A stretch of DNA of 64,000 bases from Candidatus Kapaibacterium sp. (GTDB lineage: Bacteria; Bacteroidota; Ignavibacteria; Kapaibacteriales; UBA2268), in assembly GCA_041675005.1 (NCBI GenBank), contig JBAYUQ010000006.1, positions 9,574 to 73,573 of the forward strand. Reading direction: 5' to 3'. A program made the position numbers and the translations under genes. Positions 30,993 through 61,625 of the stretch are shown in pieces (position 1 is the stretch's first letter; each line of letters starts with the position of its first letter). The notes under the pieces were generated by a model. The model saw only the letters and a list, made by a program, of their open reading frames with translations. It was not told the origin of the DNA and searched no databases.

Positions 30993-31814
30993 CTACACCC
31001 TCTCTATTTTGAAATGATGTACCTTGTGCTTCTGGTCTTTTAGGCGGATACCAGCTGTGCCGTCTGGCAATATCACTATGTTAGCACCTACTGTCATAGT
31101 AATCGTCTCGAATTTGGGATGCTCGTAAACCTTTGCTTCGAACTCCTCTGCGCTCTCTCCGAATACAGCCCCTTCCTTATCTATACCCAGTTTTCCTCTC
31201 AGATTATAACCGAAGTATTTCATTTCTTCTACTGGCTGTAAAGCTGAAGGGTAAAGTGTCTCACCCTCTTTTGGTTCATTTGGGAATACTATCTCTAACA
31301 TAGGTGGTAATTCCAGCGTGTTACCGTTCACATCTACTGTCAGTGGCTCTACGTTGATGAAGTTGGTCAAGATACCGGCTACTGCATTGAAAGAGTACAT
31401 AAGCGAGCTAAAAACTGTGCCGTTATATTCCAAATTCACACCTGATTTGATGCGAGGCAAAAAATCAGCGAACGAGTTATTCCACTCATCGAAATGATTT
31501 CCATGCCATATACCAGTATCCAGCATGTCTATCTCGTCCATCTCTTGTGGGCAATCACTCACCTTACCAAGTGTTTTTATCAAGCTATTTTTTGGTTCTA
31601 ATATTTTGTCCAGTATTACTGGTACATTACTATCTTGTAGTATCCCGAAATAGATCATATTCACATCTATCTTGCCTTCACCATCATATAACACTAGCGA
31701 GTCTTTGAGTATAGGTAATCCCTTGTAAGAAAAATTTTCCTCTGCTATGAATAGCTGTGGTTTGCCTTCTTCTATTCCACTTGCTTTGCGAATTGCTTTT
31801 CTTATTTCTATCAT
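30993..31814 (-). CDS. hypothetical protein (cytoplasmic?)
   Basis: ORF only. It is the first gene of an apparent three-gene minus-strand operon. Confidence 0.35.
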   Translation of the reverse strand: MIEIRKAIRKASGIEEGKPQLFIAEENFSYKGLPILKDSLVLYDGEGKIDVNMIYFGILQDSNVPVILDKILEPKNSLIKTLGKVSDCPQEMDEIDMLDTGIWHGNHFDEWNNSFADFLPRIKSGVNLEYNGTVFSSLMYSFNAVAGILTNFINVEPLTVDVNGNTLELPPMLEIVFPNEPKEGETLYPSALQPVEEMKYFGYNLRGKLGIDKEGAVFGESAEEFEAKVYEHPKFETITMTVGANIVILPDGTAGIRLKDQKHKVHHFKIERV

Positions 31815-32054
31815 AGTATTTCGACTTTGTATTTAATGTTCGAGTGCAAATATAATGATTATGTCGTGAGGATAGAGTCTTATTCCTCCGGTTTATATAA
31901 AATATAAAATGACTTATTCAATATTATTTATGAAATAGACTTAGTCAATTAGCTGATTACAATAAAGTAAATTGGATATATCAAAAATAAATTGTAATTT
32001 TTCTTAAAGGAATTGATTTAATCTTAGAAGTAATATTAATTTAGTGGGCATATT

Positions 32055-34661
32055 ATGAAAACTATACTTACACTTTTACTAATTGCACAAATTAGTTTAT
32101 TCGCACAGACAGAATTCAACATAGATAACTATAGGGAATACCTTAATTCACATCAGGATATGTCATACCCTGACTTATTAGATGAATACCCTGCTAGTAA
32201 GTTCAATGCTTACGCTAAAACTAATTTTTACGATGCTAAGTATTCTGATTCGATAAACCAATTCTTTGGTTTGACACCTGATGAGATTTCACTTTTGAAC
32301 TCGCATTCGTTCATGGTCTCAGAAAGATATAGCTATCCAAGCTTTATAGAAGGACTTTACGAACTTTTCAAAAAAGATATACCAATATACTTATCTGCTG
32401 ATATGATGCTGCATTCGGTACATAAGTCAGTTGACAATATGTTAATTAATATAGAAAAGCAAATATTATATTTAGAACTTAATACTGTATTATTTACAAT
32501 GCTAACGGAACTTAAGAATTACGATAGAAATAAATATTCTTCAGACCCAGTAAAACATAAGAAATATAGTGAACTAATAGATGATGCAAACTTATACCTC
32601 TTAATTGCTTACAATACTCTAACTGAATATAAAACTTTCACAGCTTCTGAAAGTATAAGCGAAAAATATAATGAGATTACCACGAATATAAAATCTGCTA
32701 ATGGAATGGATAAAGTACAACTATTTGGCGATGTATCTTTTCGAAGATATGATTGGAGCCAATTCAAACCAAGAGGACATTATTCAGAAGGATCTAAATT
32801 AAAGCAATATTTCAAAACATTAATATGGCTTGGAAGAACAGAGATATATATAACTGCCCCGAATGATAATGAAACCGACTCAACATACATAGTTCGAAAA
32901 TCAGAGATAATGAGACAAAACCGATTGGCATATTTCTTAACTTATTTGGCAAAGAAAACGGATGTAACTAATACACTTCAATACATAGATGAGACAATAG
33001 CAGTCTTTATCGGCAGACAAGATAATATAACAAACTTCGAGCTAGAAGAAGTAATAGAAGGAAAAGTAAATAGCGCTGATGACTTGCTTGATAACGGGCT
33101 TATAAAAGAACTACAAGCCAAAGCACTTGAATTAAACTCTGCTCAACAGACCTATTTGTCACAGATATTAACATCTGACCCAATGATAAAAGAAGAAATA
33201 GAACCAGCCGCTGCATTTATGCTAATGGGGCAAAGGCCAATACTAGATGGGTTTATTACTTCTAAAGTTACTTTTGATAGAGTCATATATAATAATGATA
33301 AGATTATGAGAATGCTACCAAATAGTTTAGATGTATTATTTGGTCTTGGAAATAACGCCTCTATTCAAGCACTTGAAAAAGAACTAATACACTATCCTTA
33401 TTCTTCAAACTTAGCTGCTTTAAGATATTTGATTAATTCTTATGACGATGATTTTTGGTCAAAAAATGTTTATACCTCTTGGTTAAGTTCCATAAGAGGA
33501 CTAAATCCTAAAAACACAAGAGAAGAAAGAGAACAACTACCAGAATTTATGAGAACTGCCGCTTGGTGGCAAAAATCGATGAATACACAGCTTGCTTCTT
33601 GGGCTGAGTTGAGACATGATTTTTTACTATATGCCAAGCAACCCTATACTGCATCAGCTCCAGGATGTAGTACACCTGATGCATTTATAGAACCAGTTCC
33701 TGAGATGTACTCAAGCATCAAAAATATATTTATTAACTTAAAGAAAATTAAAGATGATGAAAAACGAATTCGAGGTATTACTTATTTCTTAGACGAAGCT
33801 ATTAGTATTTTTGAGAGATTAGAAACTATATCAAGAAATTGTTTGAATAATTCTTTGACAAATGAAGATCAAGAATATTTGAATGAATACTTCTGTACAA
33901 AGGGATTCGATACTGGATGTGTAGAGATGACTCTTTTAGATGGTTGGTATCCCAAATTATTCTATGATATAAAAATTGATATTTCAGATTTGGAAAGAAA
34001 AGATCGTCAGTCAGAATTTATGGATTTCCTAGTCGCTGATATACATACTTCTCCTACTGATGAAGATGGTAATCCAGTTGGTTGGGTGAAGCACATAGCT
34101 ACAGGGCCAATTAATATGGCTGTTATAGTAACAGACAATAAAGATGGAGAAAAGACTGCTTATGCAGGGCCAGTGTCTAGTTTTTATGAATTCACTACTA
34201 GAGATTTCGAAAGATATACTGATTCGCAGTGGCAAGACGAATTTTTCGGAGTAGAACCGCAGATTGATATGGGAAATTTGAAATTCGGACAGAATAGTTT
34301 CACTAAGCATTATCTAGCTGATTTGGATGGGAAAGCATTCAACGGAGCACCCGAACTAGTAGTAACAAGCGTAAATCCTGATGATTATAGCTATGAGAAT
34401 GATAAAATAAATATCTATCCTAATCCGGCATCGAATCATATTAACCTATCTTGCAGTGTGAACCCAGGTGAATTAACTGGTAATTTCAAGCTGATTAATA
34501 TGGATGGAGTTGTAGTCCAAAGTGAGGTAATCCAATTCGTAGCAACTGGAAATAACATAAAGAAAATATTAATTGATGAGTCAATCAAATCTGGTGCTTA
34601 TATATATAGCTTAGATTTTGATAAATCAAAGTACAGCGGGAAAGTCAACGTAGTTAAGTAG
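32055..34661 (+). CDS. large secreted hypothetical protein with a T9SS C-terminal sorting domain
   Basis: Signal peptide. C-terminal INIYPNPASNHINLSCSV...GAYIYSLDF... Confidence 0.5.
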   Translation: MKTILTLLLIAQISLFAQTEFNIDNYREYLNSHQDMSYPDLLDEYPASKFNAYAKTNFYDAKYSDSINQFFGLTPDEISLLNSHSFMVSERYSYPSFIEGLYELFKKDIPIYLSADMMLHSVHKSVDNMLINIEKQILYLELNTVLFTMLTELKNYDRNKYSSDPVKHKKYSELIDDANLYLLIAYNTLTEYKTFTASESISEKYNEITTNIKSANGMDKVQLFGDVSFRRYDWSQFKPRGHYSEGSKLKQYFKTLIWLGRTEIYITAPNDNETDSTYIVRKSEIMRQNRLAYFLTYLAKKTDVTNTLQYIDETIAVFIGRQDNITNFELEEVIEGKVNSADDLLDNGLIKELQAKALELNSAQQTYLSQILTSDPMIKEEIEPAAAFMLMGQRPILDGFITSKVTFDRVIYNNDKIMRMLPNSLDVLFGLGNNASIQALEKELIHYPYSSNLAALRYLINSYDDDFWSKNVYTSWLSSIRGLNPKNTREEREQLPEFMRTAAWWQKSMNTQLASWAELRHDFLLYAKQPYTASAPGCSTPDAFIEPVPEMYSSIKNIFINLKKIKDDEKRIRGITYFLDEAISIFERLETISRNCLNNSLTNEDQEYLNEYFCTKGFDTGCVEMTLLDGWYPKLFYDIKIDISDLERKDRQSEFMDFLVADIHTSPTDEDGNPVGWVKHIATGPINMAVIVTDNKDGEKTAYAGPVSSFYEFTTRDFERYTDSQWQDEFFGVEPQIDMGNLKFGQNSFTKHYLADLDGKAFNGAPELVVTSVNPDDYSYENDKINIYPNPASNHINLSCSVNPGELTGNFKLINMDGVVVQSEVIQFVATGNNIKKILIDESIKSGAYIYSLDFDKSKYSGKVNVVK

Positions 34662-34688
34662 AAAGAAATTACTTATAATATTAATATC

Positions 34689-34721
34689 AAACCTCTTTGC
34701 TAATAGTGAAGAGGTTTTTTT
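34689..34721 (+). terminator. rho-independent terminator
   Basis: AACCTCTTtgctaatagtgAAGAGGTT followed by TTTTTTT. Confidence 0.7.
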
Positions 34722-34812
34722 CTACAATTCTATTGATATCTTGACTTTACCACCCAGCCCTTTCTCAACTATGTCATAAAGAGTTTTAAGAGTTAAGTTT
34801 GTCTCTTCGCTT

Positions 34813-35727
34813 TCAACTCTTTGCCATTTCTATTATTTTATCGCCAATATAGTTCAATGCCTTTTCGAATGTTTCTATACCGTGTCCTACATTCTCAAAT
34901 ACCTCCACAGCTTTCAAATTCTTTAAATGCAATTTTGCATTATCTATAGATTTCTGGTATGGAAATAGTAAGTCTTTGTCTCCTTCAAGAAGGTAAGTAT
35001 CAACCTTTACCTCTGCAAGTTGTTCGTTCATATAATATGGCTTTTGCGTTCTATCTTTATATCTACTAATTGCAAATACTTCATAATCTACTAACATTTT
35101 TTCGGAAAACTCTGACAAAGAATGATTAGGTTTAGAAAATACTGCTTTATCTAAGAATTTCGATACATTATTTTCAGTAGGACTAATGATTGGCAATAAG
35201 TTGAAATATAGGTTACTAAGAGTCATGGAAAATGGCTGCAAACACCCTGGGTTTAACAAAAATGCGGACTTAATTTTTTCTGGATTCACTATACCAAATT
35301 TCATACATATTAGTCCTCCAAATGAGGCTCCAGCAATAAATGCTTTATCAATTTCCAATTTCTCAAAAACTTCATTTGCCCAATGTCCATAGTCTAATGA
35401 TGTTATATCAGGTGTTTCTCCATCACTTAAATTAGGAAGGCCATTAGTTTCAACCATAAATATTCGCATCTTATGATTGAAATTATCTAATCCTTTGTCA
35501 AAATCCCAAATGAGTGCTGTAGTGCGTGCACCAGGAAATATGACTAACGTTTCTAGGTTATCTTCTTTAGTATTTAGCCCCCAAACGTGAGTTTTACCAA
35601 GTGACGTTTGGATTTCGTAACGCTCATATTTCCTGCCGTTATTTTTCTCAAGTTTAGTAACCCAATCTTCAAAATAGTTAATATCGGCTGATAGGTCTTT
35701 GAAATAAGATTTGCTTTTGATTTGCAT
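34813..35727 (-). CDS. alpha/beta-fold hydrolase
   Basis: Nucleophile elbow GASFGG. Typical length, with His near the C-terminus. Confidence 0.6.
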   Translation of the reverse strand: MQIKSKSYFKDLSADINYFEDWVTKLEKNNGRKYERYEIQTSLGKTHVWGLNTKEDNLETLVIFPGARTTALIWDFDKGLDNFNHKMRIFMVETNGLPNLSDGETPDITSLDYGHWANEVFEKLEIDKAFIAGASFGGLICMKFGIVNPEKIKSAFLLNPGCLQPFSMTLSNLYFNLLPIISPTENNVSKFLDKAVFSKPNHSLSEFSEKMLVDYEVFAISRYKDRTQKPYYMNEQLAEVKVDTYLLEGDKDLLFPYQKSIDNAKLHLKNLKAVEVFENVGHGIETFEKALNYIGDKIIEMAKS

Positions 35728-35973
35728 AGGTAAGTCGGATTAAATTGATAATATTAATCAATCCCCACTATAATGAGAATTAATATGTTTTCTAATTTAT
35801 TTAGAATTATTAATACAAATTATGCGATATGAAATAAATCTGAAATGATTTATTTACGAATTTATCAACAATTAATATGAGCAAATGGAGGTAAAAAATT
35901 TATTAACTCAATAGTTGTTTCGTTGATTAATAGTAACTATTGTGCAAATTATATTTTATGTGTTGATGAATCC

Positions 35974-36612
35974 CTAAAACTCATATCTAATTCCCATGCC
36001 TGCATAATAAGGAGAAACCAAAGGGGTAATAGATAAATCTTTCTTTTCGCTCTTTCTATGAAGATAAGGGATCGCATAACCTATTAAGCTACCTAATGCT
36101 GCACCTGCAATAACATCAGTGGTAAAGTGATAACCAGATTGCTGACGGAACAAACCAACGGCACTAGCGGCTACTAATGTACCACCCCAAATATAGGGTG
36201 TCCAATCTGAATCAGGGTAATAGTCAGAATAAACGGTCGAGAAAAAGACCGCACTCGAGAATGCCAATGCGGTATGTCCCGAAGGAAAAGATCCTCTCAA
36301 ATCTTGCTTTAGAGCTAATTTGTCTTCCAATGGAGTGTCGGGATTGTAAGCAAGTGGTCTAACCCTAGATACCGATTTAATAGAACTTGTCAGGAATGTT
36401 GTTGTAAGGATTGTCTGCAAATACATAACTGTCATAGTTCCAAAATCATCTCTTACATCCTCCGAGAGTAGGAGCGAAATAGGACTAATAATAGTAGTAA
36501 CGACAAGAATATCGCTTGCACTGCTGATATCAGGTGACCAATTGGATGCTGTACTTCGGTCAAATGAATTGATATCAGAGGTATTAAGAGCATTAATCTC
36601 ATCTACAGTCAT
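35974..36612 (-). CDS. PAP2-superfamily phosphatase
   Basis: PSGH and SGYHFTTDV (motif 2/3) signatures. Confidence 0.55.
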   Translation of the reverse strand: MTVDEINALNTSDINSFDRSTASNWSPDISSASDILVVTTIISPISLLLSEDVRDDFGTMTVMYLQTILTTTFLTSSIKSVSRVRPLAYNPDTPLEDKLALKQDLRGSFPSGHTALAFSSAVFFSTVYSDYYPDSDWTPYIWGGTLVAASAVGLFRQQSGYHFTTDVIAGAALGSLIGYAIPYLHRKSEKKDLSITPLVSPYYAGMGIRYEF

Positions 36613-36910
36613 GACCTCAGCACCTTCGGAAAGTACTTCACTAAGGACAATTAGCCCTATATTACCGCCAAATATAATCGACTCTTTTGTCCAAGTGGAA
36701 TTATACGGTGATTCAGAAAATGAATCAATTGGATTTGAAAAGAAAATAATTGGGACTAATAGTATAAGTAACTATCTGCTTTTGAAGGTATTCATTATGT
36801 TCATCGGAGGTTATTAATAACATTAAATATAATGAATGTTCATGATATTTCATAAAAAAAGCACTATTCTCATAGTGCTTTTCGATTAAAAATTTTATCG
36901 TTTTTATGAT

Positions 36911-37780
36911 CTAGTAACGCCAACATAGCTGATTACCGTCTGAAGCGTATCCTTTAGAAAGTTCTGTAAGCTTTTGCCCTTCGAGATCTATAATATACAA
37001 TCGTCCATAACTGGTAGCTACAACGTATTTACTATCAGGTGACCAAGTAGGCTTGTGGAAATTAGAAATTTCTGAATTAAAAAGTGTAGGGTTAGAGCCA
37101 TCTAAGCCCATGGTCCAAATCTTCCCATCTCGAATAAAAGCAATTCTCTTACCATCTGGACTGACGCTCGGTTCAGAAACATTTGACAAGTTTGGGTCAA
37201 TTCGTTCTAAAGAAGTGAAATCAACTGAGACCTTGTAAATACCATTGTTCATAGATGTCCAACCTTGTACATATAATGAACCGTCAGGTGCCCAGCTTGG
37301 TGATATCATCGGTTGTCTTTGGTCATAATCTCCAATTATTGCTACTAACTCACCATCATTCGCATCTATAACATAAGTAATGGGATTACTAATTGCGTCA
37401 CCTTCATATGCGACATAAGACTGATTGTAAGATATTCTCGGGCAATCAAAAACATATTTATATTTTGGCCCAGTATAGCTCTCGCTCTCAATCAGTGATT
37501 GTCTATTTCCACCGCTTAGGTCTGAATAGATTATCCTTTCAAGTGGGTATGCCTCTACTGCAAGTATGAACCCATCGCTTGTTACGTCCGGATTTACTGC
37601 ATTTGTAAATAGTTTTTGATCGGTCATATTAGTTAAGCTAAGACGGAAAATCTCGCCTCCATTTGAATAATAAATATAACCTTTGTAACCAGCAGGACTA
37701 ACGGGGTTACTATCTTTATTACATCCAATCCCTATTACTAATAAAAACGAGAAAATTAAAATCCGTATGAAATACTTCAT
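36911..37780 (-). CDS. PD40/TolB-like beta-propeller lipoprotein
   Basis: Lipobox GIGCN. Repeated SPDG/SPDS WD40-like PD40 motifs (VSPDGKRIAF, TWSPDSKYVV). Confidence 0.55.
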   Translation of the reverse strand: MKYFIRILIFSFLLVIGIGCNKDSNPVSPAGYKGYIYYSNGGEIFRLSLTNMTDQKLFTNAVNPDVTSDGFILAVEAYPLERIIYSDLSGGNRQSLIESESYTGPKYKYVFDCPRISYNQSYVAYEGDAISNPITYVIDANDGELVAIIGDYDQRQPMISPSWAPDGSLYVQGWTSMNNGIYKVSVDFTSLERIDPNLSNVSEPSVSPDGKRIAFIRDGKIWTMGLDGSNPTLFNSEISNFHKPTWSPDSKYVVATSYGRLYIIDLEGQKLTELSKGYASDGNQLCWRY

Positions 37781-38129
37781 AAAAAAACCTTTAGTTAAAA
37801 ATTTAATAAAAAACTCTTTTCGGACTATTATTCTAATTTTCTCCTTTCATTATGAATTAAGTTTAATTATTACAAAAATAAATATAATTTAGATATAAAT
37901 AATATTATTTTTTCATTTATAATCGTATGTATTCTATGGGGGTTAGGAAAGTGCAAACATAAGAGGAGTCAAGAAAACCCGAAAGCCATACTACTACGGT
38001 TATTAGTGTAATAAAATCTTTTTAGTGAGGGCATGTGGTTGATGGGATAAAAAAATATTACAAGTGAGTAATCTCGATTTTTGTTAATTTGATGGATTAT
38101 AAAGAAACAAAAATATTTAAGGAATTGTA

Positions 38130-39062
38130 ATGCTAGGTGAAATCAAAATAGTTAACTTACGGAAGATATGGAAAAATGAATATTCAAACTTTACACCTTG
38201 GTTATCTGAAAACCTTCATTTATTAGGTAAAGCAATTGGTATTGAACTAGAATTCGAAGCTAAAGAAGTTTCAGTCGGTCCATTCTCAGCAGATATTTTG
38301 GCAAAAGACACCGGGACTGATAAATTTGTAGTAATAGAGAACCAATTAGAAAAAACTGATCATGACCATTTAGGTAAATGTATTACTTACGCTTCTGTAC
38401 TCGACGCTTCAGCGGTTATTTGGATAGCATCTAAGTTTACAGATGAACATAAGAAAGCATTGGATTGGCTAAATGATCACACCTCAGAGGAGATTGGATT
38501 TTATGGTATTAAAGTAGAATTATGGCAAATTGAAAATTCTTTACCAGCTGTAAGATTTAATGTAGTTAGTCAACCAAATTTGGCTGTTAGACAAGCATCT
38601 AAAAGCAAAGAACAAACTGAATTGACAGAGAATAGAAGAACCCAGCTAAAATTTTGGGAGGAGTTTAGTACTAAACTTATCGAAACTCGGAAAATCGGTT
38701 CTGTTCAATCGCCCAGACCTCAATATTGGTTCGATGTTGCTTTAGGTAAATCAGGGATTCATCTTTCAAATACTTTTAATACTGAAACGAATGAAATAGG
38801 TGTACGGGTATATATCAATAATAAGAAAGTAGAAGATTGGTGGCCATATTTTGAATCGAGAAAAGTAGAAATTGAACAAAAAATGGGTATCAAACTAAAT
38901 TGGAATCCAAATCCTGACAACAAAGATAAAGTAATCATGCTAGTTAAGGCATTTAATTTAGAACAGAAAGAAGAGTGGGAAGCGGCATTAGATTGGTTAG
39001 TAGATTACACAGTGAGATTCAGAGAAGTATTTTCGAACGAAATCAAGAATAAAACCAAATAA
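38130..39062 (+). CDS. hypothetical protein with an N-terminal Hjc/YraN-like PD-(D/E)XK-fold segment (DUF4268-like?)
   Basis: GPFSADILAKD...KFVVIENQ resembles the D...(E)xK core of Hjc-type nucleases, with Q in the K position. Family assignment is uncertain. Confidence 0.35.
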   Translation: MLGEIKIVNLRKIWKNEYSNFTPWLSENLHLLGKAIGIELEFEAKEVSVGPFSADILAKDTGTDKFVVIENQLEKTDHDHLGKCITYASVLDASAVIWIASKFTDEHKKALDWLNDHTSEEIGFYGIKVELWQIENSLPAVRFNVVSQPNLAVRQASKSKEQTELTENRRTQLKFWEEFSTKLIETRKIGSVQSPRPQYWFDVALGKSGIHLSNTFNTETNEIGVRVYINNKKVEDWWPYFESRKVEIEQKMGIKLNWNPNPDNKDKVIMLVKAFNLEQKEEWEAALDWLVDYTVRFREVFSNEIKNKTK

Positions 39063-39088
39063 TAAATCCAGATTTAAACCTTTATTTC

Positions 39089-39400
39089 ATGAATGAAAAA
39101 CAAGTCATATTCACAAAGATAATCCTCTCCATAATATTGCTATTATGCTTATTGGATATGCCTTATGGATACTACCAGTTCGTCAGATTTGCGAGTATGA
39201 TTACTTTCGGATATCTTGCTTATAAAGAATACGAAGCCAAAGAGAGAAGTAATTTCTTTTTTATCTGGATAATTTCGGCTATTGCCTTTAACCCAATAAT
39301 AAAGTTTAGCTTTGGTAGAACGATATGGAATATAATAGATGTTGTATTAGCTTTACTTCTAGTTGTTTCAATTTGGAATGATAGGAAATCACAACAATAA
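39089..39400 (+). CDS. small 3-TM membrane protein
   Basis: Three hydrophobic helices; 103 aa. Confidence 0.4.
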   Translation: MNEKQVIFTKIILSIILLLCLLDMPYGYYQFVRFASMITFGYLAYKEYEAKERSNFFFIWIISAIAFNPIIKFSFGRTIWNIIDVVLALLLVVSIWNDRKSQQ

Positions 39401-39474
39401 CATTCGGATTAAGAGTACTCAAACAAGTTCACTAGATACAAAGTGCTATTAATCATTTAAATCCAAATACATTT

Positions 39475-39732
39475 TTAATTTATCATTGATTTCAAGAAGT
39501 TTATAATTATCAACTTCTCTTTCAAATCAGCAACTCCATACTCCACTTCCTCTTCCCTCAAAAATGAGAAACTTCCGGATTCAGAGACAAGTTTTTCTAT
39601 GCCTTTGGTGAGGATTCGGTCTTCGTATTTGGATAGGAGGAACTCAGCAAAATCAGCAACTTCCGAGATGTTATCTTCTGGAAGTTTCGAAATTGTGTTT
39701 ATAGTCTTTTCTATAAGTGCTTCTTTTGTCAT
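39475..39732 (-). CDS. small protein, DUF2281-like (antitoxin-like fold?)
   Basis: KLPEDNISEVADFAEFLLSKYED resembles the DUF2281 signature. No partner toxin is adjacent. Confidence 0.3.
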   Translation of the reverse strand: MTKEALIEKTINTISKLPEDNISEVADFAEFLLSKYEDRILTKGIEKLVSESGSFSFLREEEVEYGVADLKEKLIIINFLKSMIN

Positions 39733-39778: not shown

Positions 39779-41320
39779 TTACTCCCACTCAATAGTTCCG
39801 GGGGGTTTGCTAGTTATGTCATATACCACTCGGTTGATGCCTTTTATCTCGTTGATTATTCTGCTCGAGATTTTTTCCAATACATCATACGGCATAGGGT
39901 ACCACTCAGCAGTCATACCGTCGGTGCTTGTTACAGCACGGATAGCACAAGTGAACTCGTAAGTACGCTCGTCGCCCATTACTCCTACGCTTTTCACTGG
40001 TAGTAGTACGGCGAAGGCCTGCCATATCTCGTCGTATAGACCAGCTTCTGTGATTACATCTAAGTAGATAGCGTCTGCTTTTTGTAGGATTTCTATTTTC
40101 TCTGGTGAGATTTCTCCGAGTATTCTGATGCCTAGTCCAGGTCCAGGGAATGGATGTCTTTTGACGAACCACTCTGGTATTCCGAGCATACGCCCCACTT
40201 CGCGTACTTCATCTTTGAATAGCTCGCGGAATGGCTCTAATAATTTTAGGTTCATTTTCTCTGGCAAACCACCAACGTTGTGGTGACTCTTGATAGTAGC
40301 CGACGGCCCTTTGACAGAGACTGACTCTATAACGTCTGGGTACAAGGTTCCTTGGGCTAACCACTTAGCTGAGTCAACTCCTTGCGTTGCTCCATCGAAT
40401 AGGTCTATGAACGCCTTGCCGATTGCTTTTCTTTTTAGCTCGGGGTCGGAAACTCCTGCCAAACCACTGTAGAATGTATCGTGTCCGTTTATCACTTCTA
40501 TAGACATATCGAAATGCTTTTGGAATAGGTCATATATCTCACTGCTTTCGTTCATTCGCATTAGGCCAGAGTCTATGTGAATACAGTGTAGCTGATTGCC
40601 TATTGCTTTGTGGATTAACACAGCAGCTACAGTCGAGTCAACTCCTCCACTTAGTCCACAGATTACTTTTTCCGTGCCCACTTTGTCGCGAATTTCTTGT
40701 ATAGCGATTTCGATGAATGATTCTGCATTCCACGTATCTACGCAACCGCAGATATTACGGACGAAGTTCTCAAGTACTTTTTTACCTTCTAAAGAGTGGT
40801 GCACTTCCGGGTGGAATTGCACACCGTATATTTTCTTTTCGATATTAGCAATTGCACATATAGGAGCGTTCTCCGTATTGGCAATAGTTTGGAAGCCATC
40901 GGGCATTTTGCTTAGCGAATCGCCGTGGCTCATCCACATCTGTGCTTTGTCGGATATGCCTTCTAAAAGTGGGTTATCTTGAGTCACGTGCACTATCGCC
41001 TTGCCGTATTCTCGTTTTGCGGCTGCATCTACTTGCCCGTTTTGGGTGAAAGCGATGAGTTGCAATCCGTAGCAGATACCGAGAACTGGAATACCAAGCT
41101 CGAATACGTTGAAACTTGGGTGAGGCGCCTCTGGGGAGTACACGCTTGATGGTCCTCCCGAAAGGATAATACCTTTGGGATTCATTTCTTTTAATTTTTC
41201 TAATTCTATATTGAAGGGGTGTATTTCGGCGAAAACTCCAACTTCACGCACTTTTCGTGCTATTAGTTGAGTGTATTGCGAGCCGAAATCGAGTATTAAT
41301 ATTTTTTCTACATTTTCCAT
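39779..41320 (-). CDS. guaA: GMP synthase (glutamine-hydrolysing)
   Basis: GATase1 GICYGLQ with catalytic Cys, PP-loop SGGVDSTVAA, typical C-terminus. Confidence 0.9.
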   Translation of the reverse strand: MENVEKILILDFGSQYTQLIARKVREVGVFAEIHPFNIELEKLKEMNPKGIILSGGPSSVYSPEAPHPSFNVFELGIPVLGICYGLQLIAFTQNGQVDAAAKREYGKAIVHVTQDNPLLEGISDKAQMWMSHGDSLSKMPDGFQTIANTENAPICAIANIEKKIYGVQFHPEVHHSLEGKKVLENFVRNICGCVDTWNAESFIEIAIQEIRDKVGTEKVICGLSGGVDSTVAAVLIHKAIGNQLHCIHIDSGLMRMNESSEIYDLFQKHFDMSIEVINGHDTFYSGLAGVSDPELKRKAIGKAFIDLFDGATQGVDSAKWLAQGTLYPDVIESVSVKGPSATIKSHHNVGGLPEKMNLKLLEPFRELFKDEVREVGRMLGIPEWFVKRHPFPGPGLGIRILGEISPEKIEILQKADAIYLDVITEAGLYDEIWQAFAVLLPVKSVGVMGDERTYEFTCAIRAVTSTDGMTAEWYPMPYDVLEKISSRIINEIKGINRVVYDITSKPPGTIEWE

Positions 41321-41369
41321 AGTACAAAAATAGGAATAATTTGTGAAATTATAGAGCTGAAAGTTTTGA

Positions 41370-42341
41370 ATGATTTTAGTATATTTGGGATATGGAGAAA
41401 AAGCTAAGAGATATATATTAATGGGGTGGTTGTATTTAATTGTCGGTTTTATAATTTGGTCCCTTCTTGTTTGGACTCTTAGTCATTTTGAAATAGGTCC
41501 TTTTAAAACCGAACGGTTACCTATTAAGAGGATACAACCAACAGTTGTTGGTTATATAAATGATAAATTTGAAAACAAGATTATAATCATTCATAATGAG
41601 AAGATGCAATTCTCATATTTTGTAAGTAAAAATGATGATGAAAATGACGTACTCAAATTAAAATTAGAACTACCTTGGTCAAATCTAGATGAATTCGCTG
41701 CGATAATCTCAGAAATAGAAGTTGTAGAAGAGGAATTGTTAAGGAGGAAAGAAATCATAAAGGGTGCACCATTCAATAACTTATATCATATTACTCATAT
41801 AAATAATATTTCCAGTATTCTTGAAAATGGATTGTTATCAGATAATCATTTACAAAGAGACAATATTAATTTCGAAAACATTGCAGACCTTGAGGTTAAA
41901 GGTCATCGAGAAAAAACTGAAAGTATATACAATAAGTCGATTTTAGAATATGTACCACTTTATTTCACTCCTAAAACACCAATGTTGTACAAAAAACAAG
42001 ATATAAGTAATAATCTAGTTGTAATAGTAATTCATCCCTTTGTATTATTCGAAAAAGATTTAATATTCACTGATGGTAATGCTTCTTCGAAAAAGACAAA
42101 GTTCTATAGTGATTTAAATGATCTAAAATGTTTAGATTGGGAATGTATCAGGTCACAATTCTGGACAAAATTTGAAGATGGTAAAAGAAAACGATGTTCA
42201 GAAGTTTTAGTTCATGATAGGATTGATGTAAATTACTTCAACAAAATAGTATGCAATAATAAAAAATTATATGATGAGTTATCTATTAATTATTCGGAAT
42301 CTAATATTAAAATTGAATTAGATAATAAATATTTCTTTTAG
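41370..42341 (+). CDS. darT: DarT-family ssDNA thymidine ADP-ribosyltransferase (toxin); the true start is probably downstream, at 41421 or 41604
   Basis: Compared with Thermus DarT: LYHITHINNISSILENGLLS vs IYHITHVDNLPSILREGGLW; YVPLYFTPKTPMLY vs YVPFYFAPRSPMLY; LIFTDGNA; LDWECI; catalytic-Glu region SEVLVHD. Confidence 0.8.
   Translation: MILVYLGYGEKAKRYILMGWLYLIVGFIIWSLLVWTLSHFEIGPFKTERLPIKRIQPTVVGYINDKFENKIIIIHNEKMQFSYFVSKNDDENDVLKLKLELPWSNLDEFAAIISEIEVVEEELLRRKEIIKGAPFNNLYHITHINNISSILENGLLSDNHLQRDNINFENIADLEVKGHREKTESIYNKSILEYVPLYFTPKTPMLYKKQDISNNLVVIVIHPFVLFEKDLIFTDGNASSKKTKFYSDLNDLKCLDWECIRSQFWTKFEDGKRKRCSEVLVHDRIDVNYFNKIVCNNKKLYDELSINYSESNIKIELDNKYFF
41380..41387 (+). promoter_or_regulatory. 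candidate Bacteroidota-type -7 promoter element TATATTTG
   Basis: Matches TAnnTTTG. It lies inside the 5' end of the longest darT ORF, arguing for a downstream start. Confidence 0.3.
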
Positions 42342-42351
42342 CGGGATATAA

Positions 42352-43032
42352 ATGATTAAACATATAGTAGGAAATATCTTCACAACCAAAAAGCAAACTA
42401 TAGTAAATACTGTAAATTGTGTTGGAGTAATGGGTGCAGGGATTGCGCTAGAATTTAGACTTAGATACCCTGACATGTATCAAAAGTATGTTCAATTATG
42501 CAGCCAGAATTTGATAGATATAGGAAAACTATGGATATACAAAACTGAGAAAAAAAGAATATTAAATTTTCCAACTAAAAAGCATTGGAAAGCTCCTACA
42601 AAAGAGATTTATTTGCATAAAGGGTTAGAAAAGTTCTCAATGACATATAAAGAAAAAGGAATTACTTCAATAGCTTTTCCGCTTTTAGGAGCAAGTAATG
42701 GAGGGTTATCTAAAGAAAATTCTTTGTCAATTATGAAAGATTATCTATCTAAATGTGACATCGATATTGAAATATACGAGTATAGTCCTTTGGTTTATGA
42801 TGACCTTTTCTTGAACTTTAAAGATATATGGAATTCCAAATCACTTCATGAGCTATCTAATGAATCAGGTATATCTTTAAAGTATATTGAACGTATAAAT
42901 GCTGGCTTAGATTTAGAAAATATTAGAACATTAAGTCAATTAGCTAGTATTAAAGGAATTGGGTTTAAAACACTTGAGAAATCTTTTTATTACGTTAACA
43001 ATTCAAGTAAGCAAAACACACTCAATTTTTAA
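42352..43032 (+). CDS. darG: DarG-like macrodomain antitoxin; short form with a C-terminal HhH-like tail
   Basis: Macrodomain signature GNIFTT..QTIVNTVNCVGVMGAGIALEF. Immediately downstream of darT. C-terminal IKGIGFKTLEK. Confidence 0.75.
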   Translation: MIKHIVGNIFTTKKQTIVNTVNCVGVMGAGIALEFRLRYPDMYQKYVQLCSQNLIDIGKLWIYKTEKKRILNFPTKKHWKAPTKEIYLHKGLEKFSMTYKEKGITSIAFPLLGASNGGLSKENSLSIMKDYLSKCDIDIEIYEYSPLVYDDLFLNFKDIWNSKSLHELSNESGISLKYIERINAGLDLENIRTLSQLASIKGIGFKTLEKSFYYVNNSSKQNTLNF

Positions 43033-43068
43033 TCTAAATAACCTCTTTAAATGAATTTTCGAGAGAAA

Positions 43069-43092
43069 AAGGTGGTATTAAAGGTGGTATTA
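43069..43092 (+). repeat. perfect 12-bp tandem duplication (AAGGTGGTATTA x2)
   Basis: Read directly from the sequence. It encodes a KGGI-KGGI duplication in the frame of the HTH remnant. Confidence 0.6.
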
Positions 43093-43121
43093 AGTTAACA
43101 AAAAGACAAAAAGAAGTATTA

Positions 43122-43292
43122 ATGTTAATAGTAGAAAATCCTTCAATCGACCATGACACACTTGCTATCTCGTTAAGTATAAATAAGTCCGCTATTCAAA
43201 AACACATTAAGATGCTGAAAGAAAAAGGTGTTATTGAAAGAATTGGGGGTAAAAAACTTGGCTATTGGGAAATCATAGGTGAAGCAGATTGA
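43122..43292 (+). pseudogene. 3' remnant of a gene encoding a winged-helix HTH (the C-terminal DNA-binding domain of RecG-like / AlbA_2-type putative regulators)
   Basis: The frame is open from 43048 with no start codon until the ATG at 43122. It encodes ...LTKRQKEVLMLIVENPSIDHDTLAISLSINKSAIQKHIKMLKEKGVIERIGGKKLGYWEI. Upstream catalytic domains are missing. Confidence 0.35.
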
Positions 43293-59500: not shown

Positions 59501-59714
59501 TTGGGGGATTAATTACTAACTTTTCAAATCAATTTGTAATTATTAATTAAATTTTGTAAATTTTCGTTAATATTGTGACTTATATATATTTATTTTGGCA
59601 AAACAATAGATTTATATAGACTGATTTGCACACTGGCACGTTATTATATTATGATATAGTCTTTATACTTACAGACTTAGTATTAGAATTGAGAATTAAT
59701 TAAAGTAAAATTTT

Positions 59715-61625
59715 ATGGCAAAACCACATTCATTTCATATACCCGTTATGGGAATTGGATTCACTATCGATACACCTCTCAAAGTAGCACATCTTGGGAT
59801 TGACTCTGTCATATCACTAGTTGATGATATGTTGCTCGAAAGATTGCGGAAGATGTATAGTGAAAAATTCGGTGTACCTTACGTAGAAATAACAAAAAAA
59901 GCCGAAGATCTGAGAGCTCGCCGTATTACGGCATATCTGAATTTGATAAATGAATTCGCTGAAAAGAAATTCGAAAAATTAAAAGACGTAACAGTAAATC
60001 AAGGCAAAGAACTAAAAGAGTATTTCAAACTATTGCCTGATACATCGAAAATAAAGCAAGAGTTCAACGAATTAGTAGCTAAAGTATCAGATCTAACTGA
60101 ACTGAAATCTTGGATTGAAGAAAACGTAAAGATGGGTAGTATAGACGTCAATATTATGACTAAAGTTGACAAAGAGAACTACGTCAAGAAACAACAACTA
60201 CCAATTGAATACAACGATGCTCACGCAGCTTTGCGTGGCTATGCACTAAGTAATCTGAAATCTGGGATAGTACTCTCGGCTGGTATGAATCCACGACTTT
60301 TCTCTTACATGGAGAATTTCGATGATTTCTATGCAAATGAGAACGGTGAGATTACTAAAAAGATAATCTTAAAGGTCAGTGATTACCGCTCTGCTCTTAT
60401 CCAAGGTAAATATCTTGCAAAGAAAGGAATATGGGTGTCTGAGTACAGAATAGAATCTGGTCTAAACTGTGGAGGTCACGCTTTTGCAACTGATGGTTTC
60501 CTTTTAGGTCCTGCATTGGAAGAGTTCAAAGAAAGAAGAGAAGAGCTATATGATGATGTATATAGCGTCTTACAACCTGCTTTGGAAAGAAAATTACGAC
60601 CAGTTCCCAAAGTCAAACTAGAAATGAGAATAACGGCACAAGGTGGCGTAGGTACTGCAGAAGAACATAACTTCCTACTTGATTACTACGGTATGGATTC
60701 GATAGGATGGGGAACACCATTCTTACTAGTACCATCTGTGACTACAGTAGATAATGAAACTAGAGCTCAGTTGGTAAAAGCTACTGAAAAAGACTTGTAT
60801 TTGAGTGGTATTTCGCCACTTGGTGTACCTTTCAATAGTATGAGAGGCAATACTAAAGACAAAGAAAGAGATGAAAATCTAAACAAAGGTCGCCCTGGTA
60901 GTTCTTGTCCTAAGGGCTATGTGCAGCTCAACAAAGAATTTGGTGAGAAAGCAATTTGTACTGCTTCTAGACAATACCAAAGATTGAAAATTGAATCTTT
61001 GAAAGAACAACAACTTCCTGAAAACGAGTATCAATTCGAGTACAACAAAGTAGTAGATAGGTCTTGTACTTGTGTGGGATTAGGGACTACTGCTCTTATA
61101 GCTCATGGTTTAGAAACAAGAGTAGAGGGTGCTGGTGTATCAATATGTCCTGGCCCAAATATGGCATATTACGATAAACTAATAAGCATGCACGACATGG
61201 TAGGTCATATATATGGTAGAAAAAATATAATATCTCGCTCAGATAGACCACACATGTTTGTCAAAGAGTTAAACTTATATATAGACTTTCTGAAAACTAA
61301 GGTGGGTGAAGCTACAAGAGCTCCTACTGAAAAAGAGCAAAAGTATTTGAGAACCTTCGCAGAGAATCTAGAAAGTGGAGTTGGGTATTACTTTAATCTG
61401 CTCGAAAATGCTGGCAAAGTTATAAAGAATGCTAATACCACAATCAGAGAACAAATGGAAGAGAGTTTAACATCTTTGAGACTACTCAAATTGAAAATAG
61501 ATAACCTTATGTTGTTCAATATCAAAAGAAGCGAAGAAGTAAAGGAAACTAGAGAAATCGCTTTCAAAGAATCCGCTTTGACTCATAGAAAAAGAAGTAT
61601 AGTTAGCTTTGGTCAATTCTTATAA
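59715..61625 (+). CDS. large hypothetical cytoplasmic protein with a TIM-barrel FMN-type (NPD/IDI-2-like) phosphate-binding motif and a Cys-rich C-terminal region
   Basis: RITAQGGVGTAEEHNFLLDYYGMDSIGWGTPFLL resembles the GG(I/V)xTG...LGA..V..GT.FL motif of the NPD/FabK/IDI-2 family. Extra domains are unassigned. Confidence 0.4.
   Translation: MAKPHSFHIPVMGIGFTIDTPLKVAHLGIDSVISLVDDMLLERLRKMYSEKFGVPYVEITKKAEDLRARRITAYLNLINEFAEKKFEKLKDVTVNQGKELKEYFKLLPDTSKIKQEFNELVAKVSDLTELKSWIEENVKMGSIDVNIMTKVDKENYVKKQQLPIEYNDAHAALRGYALSNLKSGIVLSAGMNPRLFSYMENFDDFYANENGEITKKIILKVSDYRSALIQGKYLAKKGIWVSEYRIESGLNCGGHAFATDGFLLGPALEEFKERREELYDDVYSVLQPALERKLRPVPKVKLEMRITAQGGVGTAEEHNFLLDYYGMDSIGWGTPFLLVPSVTTVDNETRAQLVKATEKDLYLSGISPLGVPFNSMRGNTKDKERDENLNKGRPGSSCPKGYVQLNKEFGEKAICTASRQYQRLKIESLKEQQLPENEYQFEYNKVVDRSCTCVGLGTTALIAHGLETRVEGAGVSICPGPNMAYYDKLISMHDMVGHIYGRKNIISRSDRPHMFVKELNLYIDFLKTKVGEATRAPTEKEQKYLRTFAENLESGVGYYFNLLENAGKVIKNANTTIREQMEESLTSLRLLKLKIDNLMLFNIKRSEEVKETREIAFKESALTHRKRSIVSFGQFL

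What the first reader, a model, noticed from the sequence alone, without database searches (positions are those of the whole stretch)
38130..39732. Three small uncharacterised genes (Hjc-like nuclease-fold protein, 3-TM protein, DUF2281-like orphan) forming an islet just upstream of guaA and darTG
The 310-aa protein has an N-terminal segment resembling Hjc/YraN-type PD-(D/E)XK nucleases (GPFSADILAKD...VVIENQ), but with Gln where the catalytic Lys normally sits. Its C-terminal half has an internally repeated W/F-rich region. It is followed 27 nt later by a 103-aa three-helix membrane protein. On the opposite strand sits a DUF2281-like, antitoxin-like 85-aa ORF with no partner. Together with the DarTG module 1.6 kb away this looks like a compact defence/TA islet. 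A nuclease-like protein plus a small membrane protein is a recurring architecture among anti-phage systems.
Basis: inference. Interest (0 to 1): 0.55.

Follow-up and report, generated by a model that had tools for sequence, protein, structure and literature searches.

The report
Lone defence-candidate nuclease in a variable hotspot
The 310-aa gene belongs to a large family already listed as a candidate anti-phage nuclease (PADLOC PDC-S11). It sits in a variable slot next to guaA, the small membrane gene beside it is an unrelated resident gene, and the "orphan antitoxin" has simply lost its toxin by deletion, so the finding is real but largely ordinary.

Summary

The family is very large, spans many bacterial phyla and archaea, occurs on plasmids, and has no conserved partner gene. 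DUF6804 lies next to an A homologue in only 1 of 80 species-level loci.

A close relative (94-97% nt identity in the flanks) lacks A but keeps B. It also keeps an intact DUF2281-PemK pair, and has DUF1361 where the window has DarT-DarG. Another relative has a PDC-S31 candidate in A's slot. A's synonymous divergence among relatives is 0.18-0.25, against 0.75-1.1 for guaA.

So A is a mobile single-gene defence candidate, most likely a restriction-type and possibly modification-dependent nuclease. B is a resident flank gene, and C is an antitoxin that has lost its toxin. The "nuclease plus membrane protein cassette" reading is not supported. The "variable defence/TA locus" reading is.

The parts
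38130..39062 (+). Gene A: 310-aa PDC-S11 family protein (PD-(D/E)XK nuclease domain plus DUF4268)
   Evidence: ORF. PADLOC PDC-S11 E = 1.2e-114 over residues 2-307. 7639 homologues found and 5776 50%-identity clusters. AF2 model pLDDT 86.6.
38130..38609 (+). N-terminal domain of A (residues 1-160): PD-(D/E)XK / RecB-like nuclease fold
38292..38390 (+). Putative active-site segment: D55, E70-N71-Q72, H78, H80, G82, K83 (Q or K in the family), Y87
   Evidence: Translation. Conservation in 134 diverse family members: D55 99%, E70 100%, N71 99%, Q72 99%, H78 97%, H80 99%, G82 99%, Y87 99%; position 83 is Q (72) or K (59).
38643..39038 (+). DUF4268 domain of A (residues 172-303), modelled with a type III secretion chaperone/YbjN-like fold
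38116..39052 (+). Presence/absence segment: 937 bp (essentially gene A) missing from the closest relative, L081
   Evidence: blastn of window against L081: 33183-38115 at 97.3%, resuming at 39053.
39089..39400 (+). Gene B: 103-aa DUF6804 membrane protein, a resident flank gene of the slot
   Evidence: Pfam PF20619 E = 4.5e-30. Three hydrophobic segments. Present without A in L081, and after a PDC-S31-like gene in L082/L083. No PADLOC hit.
39475..39732 (-). Gene C: DUF2281 (VapB-like) antitoxin that has lost its toxin. Its last ~12 codons are read from what remains after the pemK deletion.
   Evidence: Pfam DUF2281 1.4e-7. 89-91% identical to the 75-aa DUF2281 of L081 up to about residue 72-74, then divergent.
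39458..39517 (-). Remnant of the 3' end of a pemK/mazF-type toxin gene (last 20 codons), out of frame with C
   Evidence: tblastn of L081 PemK residues 86-105, 75% identity, E = 8.7e-5. The DNA alignment shows about 260 bp of pemK deleted. Intact PemK-DUF2281 pairs are present in L081 and L089.
39779..41320 (-). guaA (GMP synthase): conserved housekeeping anchor of the variable locus (context)
   Evidence: Pfam GATase and GMP_synt_C. Syntenic in L019, L081, L083 and L089.
41370..43292 (+). DarT - DarG(macro) - small wHTH block: a separate insertion on the other side of guaA, replacing DUF1361 of L081 (context)
   Evidence: Pfam, PADLOC and NCBIfam hits. The window-L081 homology breaks at 41348 and resumes at 43290. 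L081 has DUF1361 there.

Best explanation
Gene A is a stand-alone member of the very large PDC-S11 family: an N-terminal PD-(D/E)XK (RecB/NucS-like) nuclease domain joined to a C-terminal DUF4268 domain. It most likely acts alone as a restriction-type anti-phage or anti-plasmid DNA endonuclease. The nuclease domain would cut DNA using E17/D55/E70 with Q72 in the position of the usual Lys. The DUF4268 domain would supply target discrimination, most plausibly recognition of modified, non-self DNA (Type IV-like). That would explain why no methyltransferase partner is needed. Shown here: family membership, the fold, conservation of the motif, the absence of any conserved partner, presence/absence polymorphism, and recent exchange between lineages. 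Inferred: nuclease activity, the defence role, and modification dependence. Gene B (DUF6804) is a resident small membrane protein flanking the insertion slot. It is probably co-transcribed with A only because A landed about 26 nt upstream of it. Gene C is the antitoxin half of a DUF2281-PemK type II TA pair whose toxin gene was deleted in this genome. Together with the DarTG insertion on the other side, the guaA neighbourhood is a variable hotspot that collects defence and TA cargo. It is not a single multi-gene system.
For: Family and fold:
- PADLOC PDC-S11, full length, E = 1.2e-114.
- The domain-only model (pLDDT 89.7) hits almost exclusively PD-(D/E)XK nucleases. These include the modification-dependent enzymes AspBHI and MspJI and the defence nucleases Can2, SduA and HamA.
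- D55, E70, N71, Q72, H78, H80, G82 and Y87 are 97-100% conserved across 134 members that share only 35-50% identity.

Stand-alone, mobile gene:
- The ~310-aa two-domain architecture recurs among the top cluster representatives (1465 clusters at E < 1e-30).
- 80 species-level loci span many bacterial phyla and archaea.
- The family is also on plasmids (68 full-length hits) and on an archaeal provirus.
- Neighbours are heterogeneous. They often include MmeI-type IIG R-M, Mrr, HsdR, ResIII, methylases, GmrSD, AbiEii, YoeB and integrases. No family recurs in more than 4 of about 130 neighbour proteins in the Pfam tallies; the largest PADLOC tally was 7 of 132 (mad2).

Local history:
- A is a clean 937-bp presence/absence difference against L081, whose flanks are 94-97% identical.
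- A PDC-S31-like gene occupies the same slot in L082/L083.
- dS of A is 0.18-0.25, against 0.75-1.1 for the adjacent guaA.

Literature:
- DUF4268 is a recurrent C-terminal add-on of GmrSD Type IV enzymes and is predicted to bind DNA (PMC4619093; PMC5714182).
- The DUF4268-containing nucleases MdgA and MdgB protect E. coli against T4 but not unmodified T4-GT7. MdgA degrades T4 DNA in vitro, and E77A abolishes this (PMC12366544).

B and C:
Against: - No experiment addresses this protein or, as far as I could read, PDC-S11 itself. One preprint that mentions PDC-S11 six times could not be opened.
Its authors annotated with PADLOC v2 HMMs and still describe MdgA as lacking homology to known defences. 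MdgA may therefore not be a PDC-S11 member, and the link rests only on the shared DUF4268 domain.
- The canonical Lys is replaced by Gln in the whole family. Sequence alone cannot prove activity.
- The DUF4268 fold resembles protein-binding chaperones rather than known modified-base readers such as SRA.
- B shows reduced dS against L019 and L089 (0.29-0.38), and the A-B adjacency is kept in three lineages. The two genes have therefore moved together at least locally.
- Enrichment of defence genes among neighbours was not tested against a background set.
Confidence: 0.6

Rival explanations
1. A and B form a two-gene defence system. The nuclease-fold protein senses or cuts, and the DUF6804 membrane protein acts as effector or anchor.
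For: The genes share a strand with a 26-nt gap and no terminator between them. The A-B adjacency is kept in three distinct lineages (window, L019, L089) with different upstream flanks. B's dS against L019 and L089 (0.29-0.38) is lower than guaA's (0.75-0.80), so A and B moved together. DUF6804 also sits directly behind other variable genes: PDC-S31 in L082 and TerC in L085.
Against: Only 1 of 80 species-level A loci has DUF6804 within 10 kb. DUF6804 is not among the neighbour families seen two or more times. Only 5 of 70 loci have any ORF with two or more TM segments just downstream. B is present without A in the closest relative. B has no PADLOC hit. Co-transfer is expected anyway if B serves as the homologous flank for recombination.
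Confidence: 0.1
2. A is an infection-triggered (abortive-infection type) nuclease. The DUF4268 domain, with its chaperone/YbjN-like fold, binds a phage protein rather than modified DNA and releases or activates the nuclease.
For: The closest solved folds to the DUF4268 domain are protein-binding type III secretion chaperones and YbjN/AmyR. The N-terminal fold also resembles effector nucleases of sensor-coupled systems: Can2, Cap4, NucC, SduA and HamA. The gene stands alone with no methylase.
Confidence: 0.2
3. A is a housekeeping DNA-repair nuclease related to NucS/EndoMS or to Holliday-junction resolvases.
Against: - Presence/absence varies between genomes with 94-97% identical flanks.
- dS is far below that of the flanking guaA.
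- Distribution is patchy across phyla and includes plasmids and a provirus.
- Gene contexts are variable and rich in R-M and TA genes.
- No sequence-level match to any solved NucS or Hjc, even with a family profile.
- The N-terminal DNA-binding domain of NucS is absent; DUF4268 follows the nuclease domain instead.
Confidence: 0.04
4. A is a catalytically dead nuclease-fold protein (Lys replaced by Gln) that acts as a DNA-binding regulator or decoy.
For: Q72 replaces the canonical Lys throughout the family.
Against: The acidic residues E17, D55 and E70 and the downstream H-x-H-L-G-(Q/K)-x-x-x-Y helix are 97-100% conserved. That pattern is what a working active site looks like. From my own knowledge, the active restriction enzyme BglII also has Gln at this position, so the substitution does not imply loss of activity. 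dN/dS is 0.04.
Confidence: 0.06

Closest known systems
PADLOC phage-defence candidate PDC-S11 (DUF4268 domain-containing proteins of ~310 aa)
   Same: Full-length HMM match (E = 1.2e-114, profile positions 5-314 of 318). Same length and two-domain layout. Single gene, often next to R-M, Abi or TA genes.
   Different: Nothing distinguishes it from the family. It is an ordinary member, 62-98% identical to many metagenomic proteins. The family is only a candidate: I found no published test of its function that I could read.
MdgA / MdgB, DUF4268-containing modification-dependent anti-phage nucleases (Cell Host Microbe 2025, PMC12366544)
   Same: A nuclease domain plus DUF4268. Single-gene defence, widespread across phyla. 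The catalytic Glu of MdgA (E77) lies at a position compatible with E70 here, given the usual 3-8 residue N-terminal offsets in the family.
   Different: The authors say MdgA lacked homology to known defences even though they scanned with PADLOC v2.
NucS/EndoMS C-terminal RecB-like nuclease domain (PDB 2vld)
   Different: Lys is replaced by Gln. The NucS N-terminal DNA-binding domain is absent. DUF4268 is appended. No sequence-level similarity is detectable. The gene is accessory rather than a conserved repair gene.
GmrSD-type Type IV restriction enzymes carrying DUF4268
   Same: The same C-terminal accessory domain, no cognate methylase, and a defence-island context.
   Different: The catalytic modules are unrelated: ParB-like DUF262 plus HNH-like DUF1524, against PD-(D/E)XK here.
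Hjc / YraN (UPF0102) minimal PD-(D/E)XK proteins
   Different: They rank well below NucS, AF1548 and the restriction enzymes. They are single-domain proteins of ~120 aa with a canonical E-x-K. There is no sequence-level relationship.
DUF2281-PemK/MazF type II toxin-antitoxin pair
   Same: C is 89-91% identical to the DUF2281 antitoxin that precedes an intact PemK toxin at the same position in L081. L089 has the same pair.
   Different: In the window the toxin gene is deleted except for its last ~60 nt, and C's C-terminus is altered.

Membership tests
PADLOC PDC-S11 | Full-length match to the PDC-S11 HMMs | tested here: met
   E = 1.2e-114, 2.7e-103 and 1.8e-79 to three PDC-S11 models, covering residues 2-307.
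PADLOC PDC-S11 | Single-gene system, with no obligatory partner | tested here: met
   No Pfam neighbour family recurs in more than 4 of about 130 flanking proteins across 74 loci; the largest PADLOC tally was 7 of 132 (mad2).
PADLOC PDC-S11 | Demonstrated anti-phage activity | not testable with these tools
   I could read only a weak correlative mention in haloarchaea. One preprint with six mentions of PDC-S11 could not be opened.
PD-(D/E)XK nuclease superfamily | Alpha-beta-beta-beta-alpha-beta core fold | tested here: met
PD-(D/E)XK nuclease superfamily | Catalytic D ... (D/E)-x-K signature | tested here: inconclusive
   D55 and E70 are present and 99-100% conserved. The Lys position is Gln (Q72, 99% conserved). 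Gln at this site occurs in active enzymes (BglII, from my own knowledge), so this is a known variant of the signature and not the canonical one.
PD-(D/E)XK nuclease superfamily | Metal-dependent phosphodiester cleavage | not testable with these tools
   Needs biochemistry.
NucS/EndoMS | Two-domain NucS architecture (N-terminal DNA-binding domain plus C-terminal nuclease) and sequence-level homology | tested here: not met
   The nuclease domain is N-terminal and followed by DUF4268. There is no hit to NucS with a single sequence or a family profile against PDB sequences.
Hjc / YraN | Small single-domain protein with canonical E-x-K and sequence-level homology | tested here: not met
Type IV (modification-dependent) restriction / MdgA-like | Nuclease domain plus DUF4268 accessory domain | tested here: met
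   The DUF4268 association is described in PMC4619093, PMC5714182 and PMC12366544.
Type IV (modification-dependent) restriction / MdgA-like | No cognate methyltransferase | tested here: met
   No methylase was found among the 10 window ORFs scanned (A, B, C and seven neighbours between 35.9 and 44.2 kb). Methylases appear in only a few of the 74 related loci.
Type IV (modification-dependent) restriction / MdgA-like | Preferential cleavage of modified DNA; homology to MdgA itself | not testable with these tools
   The MdgA sequence (Table S7 of the paper) is not held. Whether MdgA is a PDC-S11 member is uncertain.
   DUF6804 is near A in 1 of 80 loci. Five of 70 loci have any multi-TM ORF directly downstream. 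B occurs without A in L081, L082 and L085-L088.
DUF6804 (PF20619) | Pfam match above the gathering score | tested here: met
   104 bits against a cut-off of 27.
Type II TA (DUF2281 antitoxin - PemK/MazF toxin) | Antitoxin with DUF2281 domain | tested here: met
   32.5 bits against a cut-off of 26.5. About 90% identical to the L081 antitoxin.
Type II TA (DUF2281 antitoxin - PemK/MazF toxin) | Adjacent intact toxin gene | tested here: not met
   Only the last 20 codons of pemK remain (39458-39517). About 260 bp are deleted relative to L081.

The most novel reading that the evidence does not exclude
DUF6804 may be more than a passive flank. It sits immediately downstream (from an 8-nt overlap to a 27-nt gap) of quite different upstream genes in different genomes: PDC-S11 here, PDC-S31 in a related contig, TerC in a Flavobacterium Ter/kinase/phosphatase cluster next to HsdM, and an unknown TM protein elsewhere. 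It also appears to have been co-transferred with A among Kapabacteria-like lineages. It could be a small, shared membrane adaptor or effector that different single-gene defence candidates plug into. Separately, DUF4268's chaperone-like fold could mean this huge family senses a phage protein rather than a DNA modification.
Probability: 0.1. Interest if true: 0.6.

Novelty: new member of a known kind. Interest (0 to 1): 0.3.

Why it matters
As an individual locus it matters little. It is one more copy of a very common, already catalogued candidate defence gene, plus a decayed TA module.

The family is worth attention. It holds thousands of clusters in bacteria, archaea, plasmids and a provirus. 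It is strongly conserved (dN/dS 0.04; 62-78% identity across phyla) and combines an invariant E-N-Q variant of the PD-(D/E)XK site with an accessory domain of unknown role. I could read no published mechanism for it.

The locus comparison gives a clean natural example of a small defence hotspot next to guaA. Close relatives carry PDC-S11, PDC-S31 or nothing in one slot, and DarTG or DUF1361 in another. Such comparisons can be used to mine further candidates in the poorly studied Kapabacteria/Ignavibacteria.

Tried and rejected
- **Sequence searches against PDB chains.** A single sequence and a 97-member family profile both gave only noise. The nuclease assignment therefore rests on predicted structure and motif.
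- **Internal repeat in the C-terminal half.** Not detectable. N-domain against C-domain similarity is marginal (6 of 300 shuffles), and I did not rely on it.
- **Obtaining the MdgA sequence.** No supplements are held, so I could not test A against it.
- **Reading the H-NS preprint that mentions PDC-S11 six times.** Two attempts failed.
- **Target-site duplication or mobile-element ends around A.** I found only an AT-rich, imperfect ~12-30 bp similarity at both junctions. This does not decide between insertion and deletion. There are no significant repeats and no tRNA within 25-50 kb.
- **Promoter/terminator scan.** No more sites than in shuffles, and no terminator between A and B.
- **NucS-like repair and dead-nuclease readings.** Considered and rejected; see the rival explanations.
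- **PADLOC tallies of neighbours.** These confirm R-M-type neighbours in a minority of loci, but no background set was available, so I make no enrichment claim.
Full report
**Observation**

The ORF list shows the three ORFs exactly as reported:
- A: 38130-39062 (+), 310 aa
- B: 39089-39400 (+), 103 aa, 26 nt after A's stop
- C: 39475-39732 (-), 85 aa

guaA follows at 39779-41320 (-), then DarT at 41370-42341 (+) and a macro-domain DarG at 42352-43032 (+).

Pfam gives DUF4268 for A residues 172-303 (3.8e-26), with nothing for the N-terminal half. It gives DUF6804 for B (4.5e-30) and DUF2281 for C residues 11-39 (1.4e-7). NCBIfam gives a sub-threshold VapB hit for C. The quoted motif is present, with D55 and E70-N71-Q72. 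B has three strongly hydrophobic segments and one weaker one.

The only detail that failed is the "internally repeated" C-terminal region. It is rich in aromatics, but self-alignment is no better than shuffles.

**What A is**

PADLOC-DB matches A over its whole length to the phage-defence candidate PDC-S11 (1.2e-114).

The family is very large:
- 7639 homologues among the scored candidates.
- 5776 clusters at 50% identity with E < 1e-3, of which 1465 have E < 1e-30. Most of the listed top representatives are about 300-340 aa and match over nearly the full query.
- Species-level genomes carrying it span Bacteroidota, Ignavibacteria, Balneolaceae, Cloacimonadota, cyanobacteria, Planctomycetes, Acidobacteria, Actinomycetes, Proteobacteria, Firmicutes, and the archaea ANME-1 and Methanosarcinales.
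- It is also on plasmids (68 full-length matches), on an archaeal pleolipovirus-like provirus, and in an unannotated PHROG.

In 134 members sharing only 35-50% identity, E17, D55, E70, N71, Q72, H78, H80, G82 and Y87 are 97-100% conserved. Position 83 is Q or K. The N-terminal domain is much better conserved than the C-terminal one.

**Fold**

- Type III secretion chaperone/YbjN-like proteins: SicP 8.1, YktB 8.2, ShcA, AmyR.

To assign these hits to domains I modelled residues 1-160 alone (pLDDT 89.7, pTM 0.86) and searched again. The nuclease hits stayed: NucS 10.7, AF1548 8.7, AspBHI 8.4, N.BspD6I 8.1, PaqCI and FokI 7.7, MspJI 7.5, Can2 7.4, SduA 6.7, YraN-like 3fov 6.5, HamA 6.4, Hjc 6.1. 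The chaperone-like hits disappeared. So the N-terminal domain is a PD-(D/E)XK nuclease fold, and DUF4268 carries the chaperone/YbjN-like fold.

The secondary-structure order places E17 in helix 1, D55 in strand 2, E70-N-Q72 at the end of strand 3, and the H-x-H-L-G-(Q/K)-x-x-x-Y segment in the following helix. This is the layout of RecB-like PD-(D/E)XK sites (established knowledge of the superfamily).

Gln replacing the Lys is therefore real and family-wide. It is a known variant in active enzymes (BglII, from my own knowledge), and everything else about the site is under strong constraint. I read it as a working nuclease, not a dead one. No sequence-level relationship to any solved protein exists, even with a family profile.

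**Is there a partner gene?**

I fetched 80 species-level loci with 10-kb flanks, called ORFs, and scanned the two nearest genes on each side against Pfam and PADLOC.
- No Pfam family recurs in more than 4 of about 130 proteins on either side; the largest PADLOC tally was 7 of 132 (mad2).
- What does recur is typical defence-island content: MmeI-type IIG R-M, Mrr, HsdR, ResIII, N6/N4 methylases, GmrSD, HEC-06, AbiEii, YoeB and integrases.
- tblastn with B finds DUF6804 in only one of the 80 loci, L019, a related Ignavibacteriae MAG.
- Only 5 of 70 loci have any same-strand downstream ORF with two or more TM-like segments.

PDC-S11 is thus a single-gene unit, as its PADLOC name implies.

**The local history**

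B is 100% identical to a protein from Candidatus Kapaibacterium sp., and L094 is the same locus in a public assembly.

*Closest relative, L081 (Kapabacteriales PGYR01).* It aligns at 97.3% over window 33183-38115 and 94% over guaA. It differs in four discrete ways:
1. The 937 bp at 38116-39052, essentially gene A, are absent.
2. It has DUF2807 and TonB_C genes after B that the window lacks.
3. It has an intact PemK toxin after the DUF2281 antitoxin.
4. It has a DUF1361 gene where the window has DarT-DarG-wHTH.

*Gene C.* It is about 90% identical to the L081 antitoxin up to about residue 72-74 and then diverges. About 260 bp of pemK are missing and only its last 20 codons remain (39458-39517, tblastn E = 8.7e-5). 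L089 keeps both A-B and an intact PemK-DUF2281 pair. C is therefore a bereft antitoxin left by a recent toxin deletion.

*Other relatives.* In L082/L083, the gene directly upstream of B (overlapping it by 8 nt) is a 244-aa protein matching PADLOC PDC-S31 (7.3e-18). The slot upstream of B thus holds PDC-S11, PDC-S31 or nothing in related genomes. That is the behaviour of a small defence hotspot with B and guaA as the fixed flank.

*Synonymous divergence.* The values support mobility:
- A: dS = 0.18-0.25 among the window, L019 and L089.
- guaA: dS = 0.75-1.1, and the upstream 294-aa gene is saturated.
- B: intermediate (0.29-0.43). Its window allele is only 85% identical in DNA to L081's, although the flanks are 94-97% identical. 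The exchanged tract therefore seems to include B.

I take this as recombination using B as a flank. It is also the one observation that keeps the two-gene idea alive.

**B elsewhere**

DUF6804 homologues are mostly from Flavobacteriia. In F. crassostreae the gene overlaps the end of terC, within a TerY/PP2C/kinase/TerC cluster next to hsdM and a KAP NTPase. In other contigs it follows an unknown 264-aa TM protein. It has no PADLOC, NCBIfam or PHROG hit.

**Mechanism**

Shown here:
- a conserved PD-(D/E)XK site
- a DUF4268 accessory domain
- no partner gene and no methylase
- accessory, recently exchanged status

From the literature:
- DUF4268 is a frequent C-terminal addition to GmrSD Type IV enzymes and is predicted to bind DNA.
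- Two DUF4268-bearing nucleases from metagenomic selections, MdgA and MdgB, protect E. coli against T4 but not T4-GT7.
- MdgA also protects against Mu. It degrades T4 DNA in vitro far better than unmodified DNA, and this activity is lost in E77A.

A nuclease that works alone and does not kill its host must recognise something foreign. Modified DNA is the simplest candidate, so I favour a Type IV-like mechanism.

Caveats:
- I could not obtain the MdgA sequence.
- Its authors, who scanned with PADLOC v2, call it unrelated to known defences. Homology beyond DUF4268 is unproven.
- The chaperone-like fold of DUF4268 would fit a protein-sensing, infection-triggered nuclease equally well (rival 2).

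**Comparison and verdict**

A is an ordinary member of PDC-S11, meaning a new member of a known but only candidate kind. It works like, and may be related to, Type IV restriction nucleases. It is not a NucS, Hjc or YraN family member: architecture and sequence tests were not met.

Interest is modest for the locus (0.3). The family itself, and the possible role of DUF6804 behind different candidates, are the only points that could repay experiments.

Noticed in passing
L082:1551-2285 and L083:1-402 (same slot as window 38116-39052): In a related contig, the gene directly upstream of DUF6804 (overlapping it by 8 nt) is a 244-aa protein matching PADLOC PDC-S31 (7.3e-18). It is preceded by two small unknown ORFs. 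So the slot next to B and guaA carries different defence candidates in different relatives.
   Followed up: partly
window 41370-43292: DarT has an N-terminal extension of about 135 aa with a strongly hydrophobic segment (residues ~7-37); a public gene call starts it later (306 aa). DarG is only 226 aa (macro domain, positions 1-146 of the 329-position DarG model). A 56-aa winged-HTH ORF follows, overlapping the start of the GNAT gene. The whole block replaces a DUF1361 gene present in the closest relative, L081.
   Followed up: partly
window 36854-36881; L081:5287-5314; L082:2604-2640; L083:721-757: A 28-37-nt bidirectional terminator-like hairpin (AAAAAAAGCACTATTCTCATAGTGCTTTT; fold z about -5.5) follows the stop of DUF6804 in relatives. 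It is missing after B in the window, where a 1.2-kb deletion (DUF2807 + TonB_C) ends. An identical copy lies between the PAP2 and PD40 genes of the window.
   Followed up: partly
window 38077-39354 vs L019:9948-11225; L089: The A(+B) block is 94.8% identical in DNA to L019, while flanking syntenic genes are 74-87% identical. dS is 0.18-0.25 for A against 0.75-1.1 for guaA. This indicates recent exchange of the block among Kapabacteria/Ignavibacteria lineages.
   Followed up: yes
window 31860-38076: Relative to L019, the window has a 6.2-kb insertion between the 294-aa gene homologue (30996-31859) and A. It carries a DUF3160/T9SS-tail protein, an alpha/beta hydrolase, a PAP2 phosphatase and a PD40 beta-propeller lipoprotein. 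L081 shares at least the part covered by the fetched locus (from 33183).
   Followed up: no
L085:4208-5303 (Flavobacterium crassostreae CP017688.1): DUF6804 overlaps the 3' end of a terC gene in a Macro - TerY/VWA - PP2C - Ser/Thr kinase - TerC cluster, followed by hsdM and a KAP NTPase. This is another stress/defence-like context for this small membrane protein.
   Followed up: no
L095 (BK065154.1, Archaeoglobus profundus pleomorphic provirus 1): A full-length PDC-S11 homologue (38% identity) is the first gene of an archaeal pleolipovirus-like provirus. It sits next to a 'PD-(D/E)XK superfamily' protein and an AAA ATPase. A haloarchaeal-virus preprint labels a viral DUF4268 protein as counter-defence, without evidence.
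   Followed up: no
window 59549-61619 vs L019:5768-7829: A 2-kb segment that lies just upstream of the locus in L019 is found about 20 kb away and inverted in the window. This indicates a rearrangement between the two genomes.
   Followed up: no
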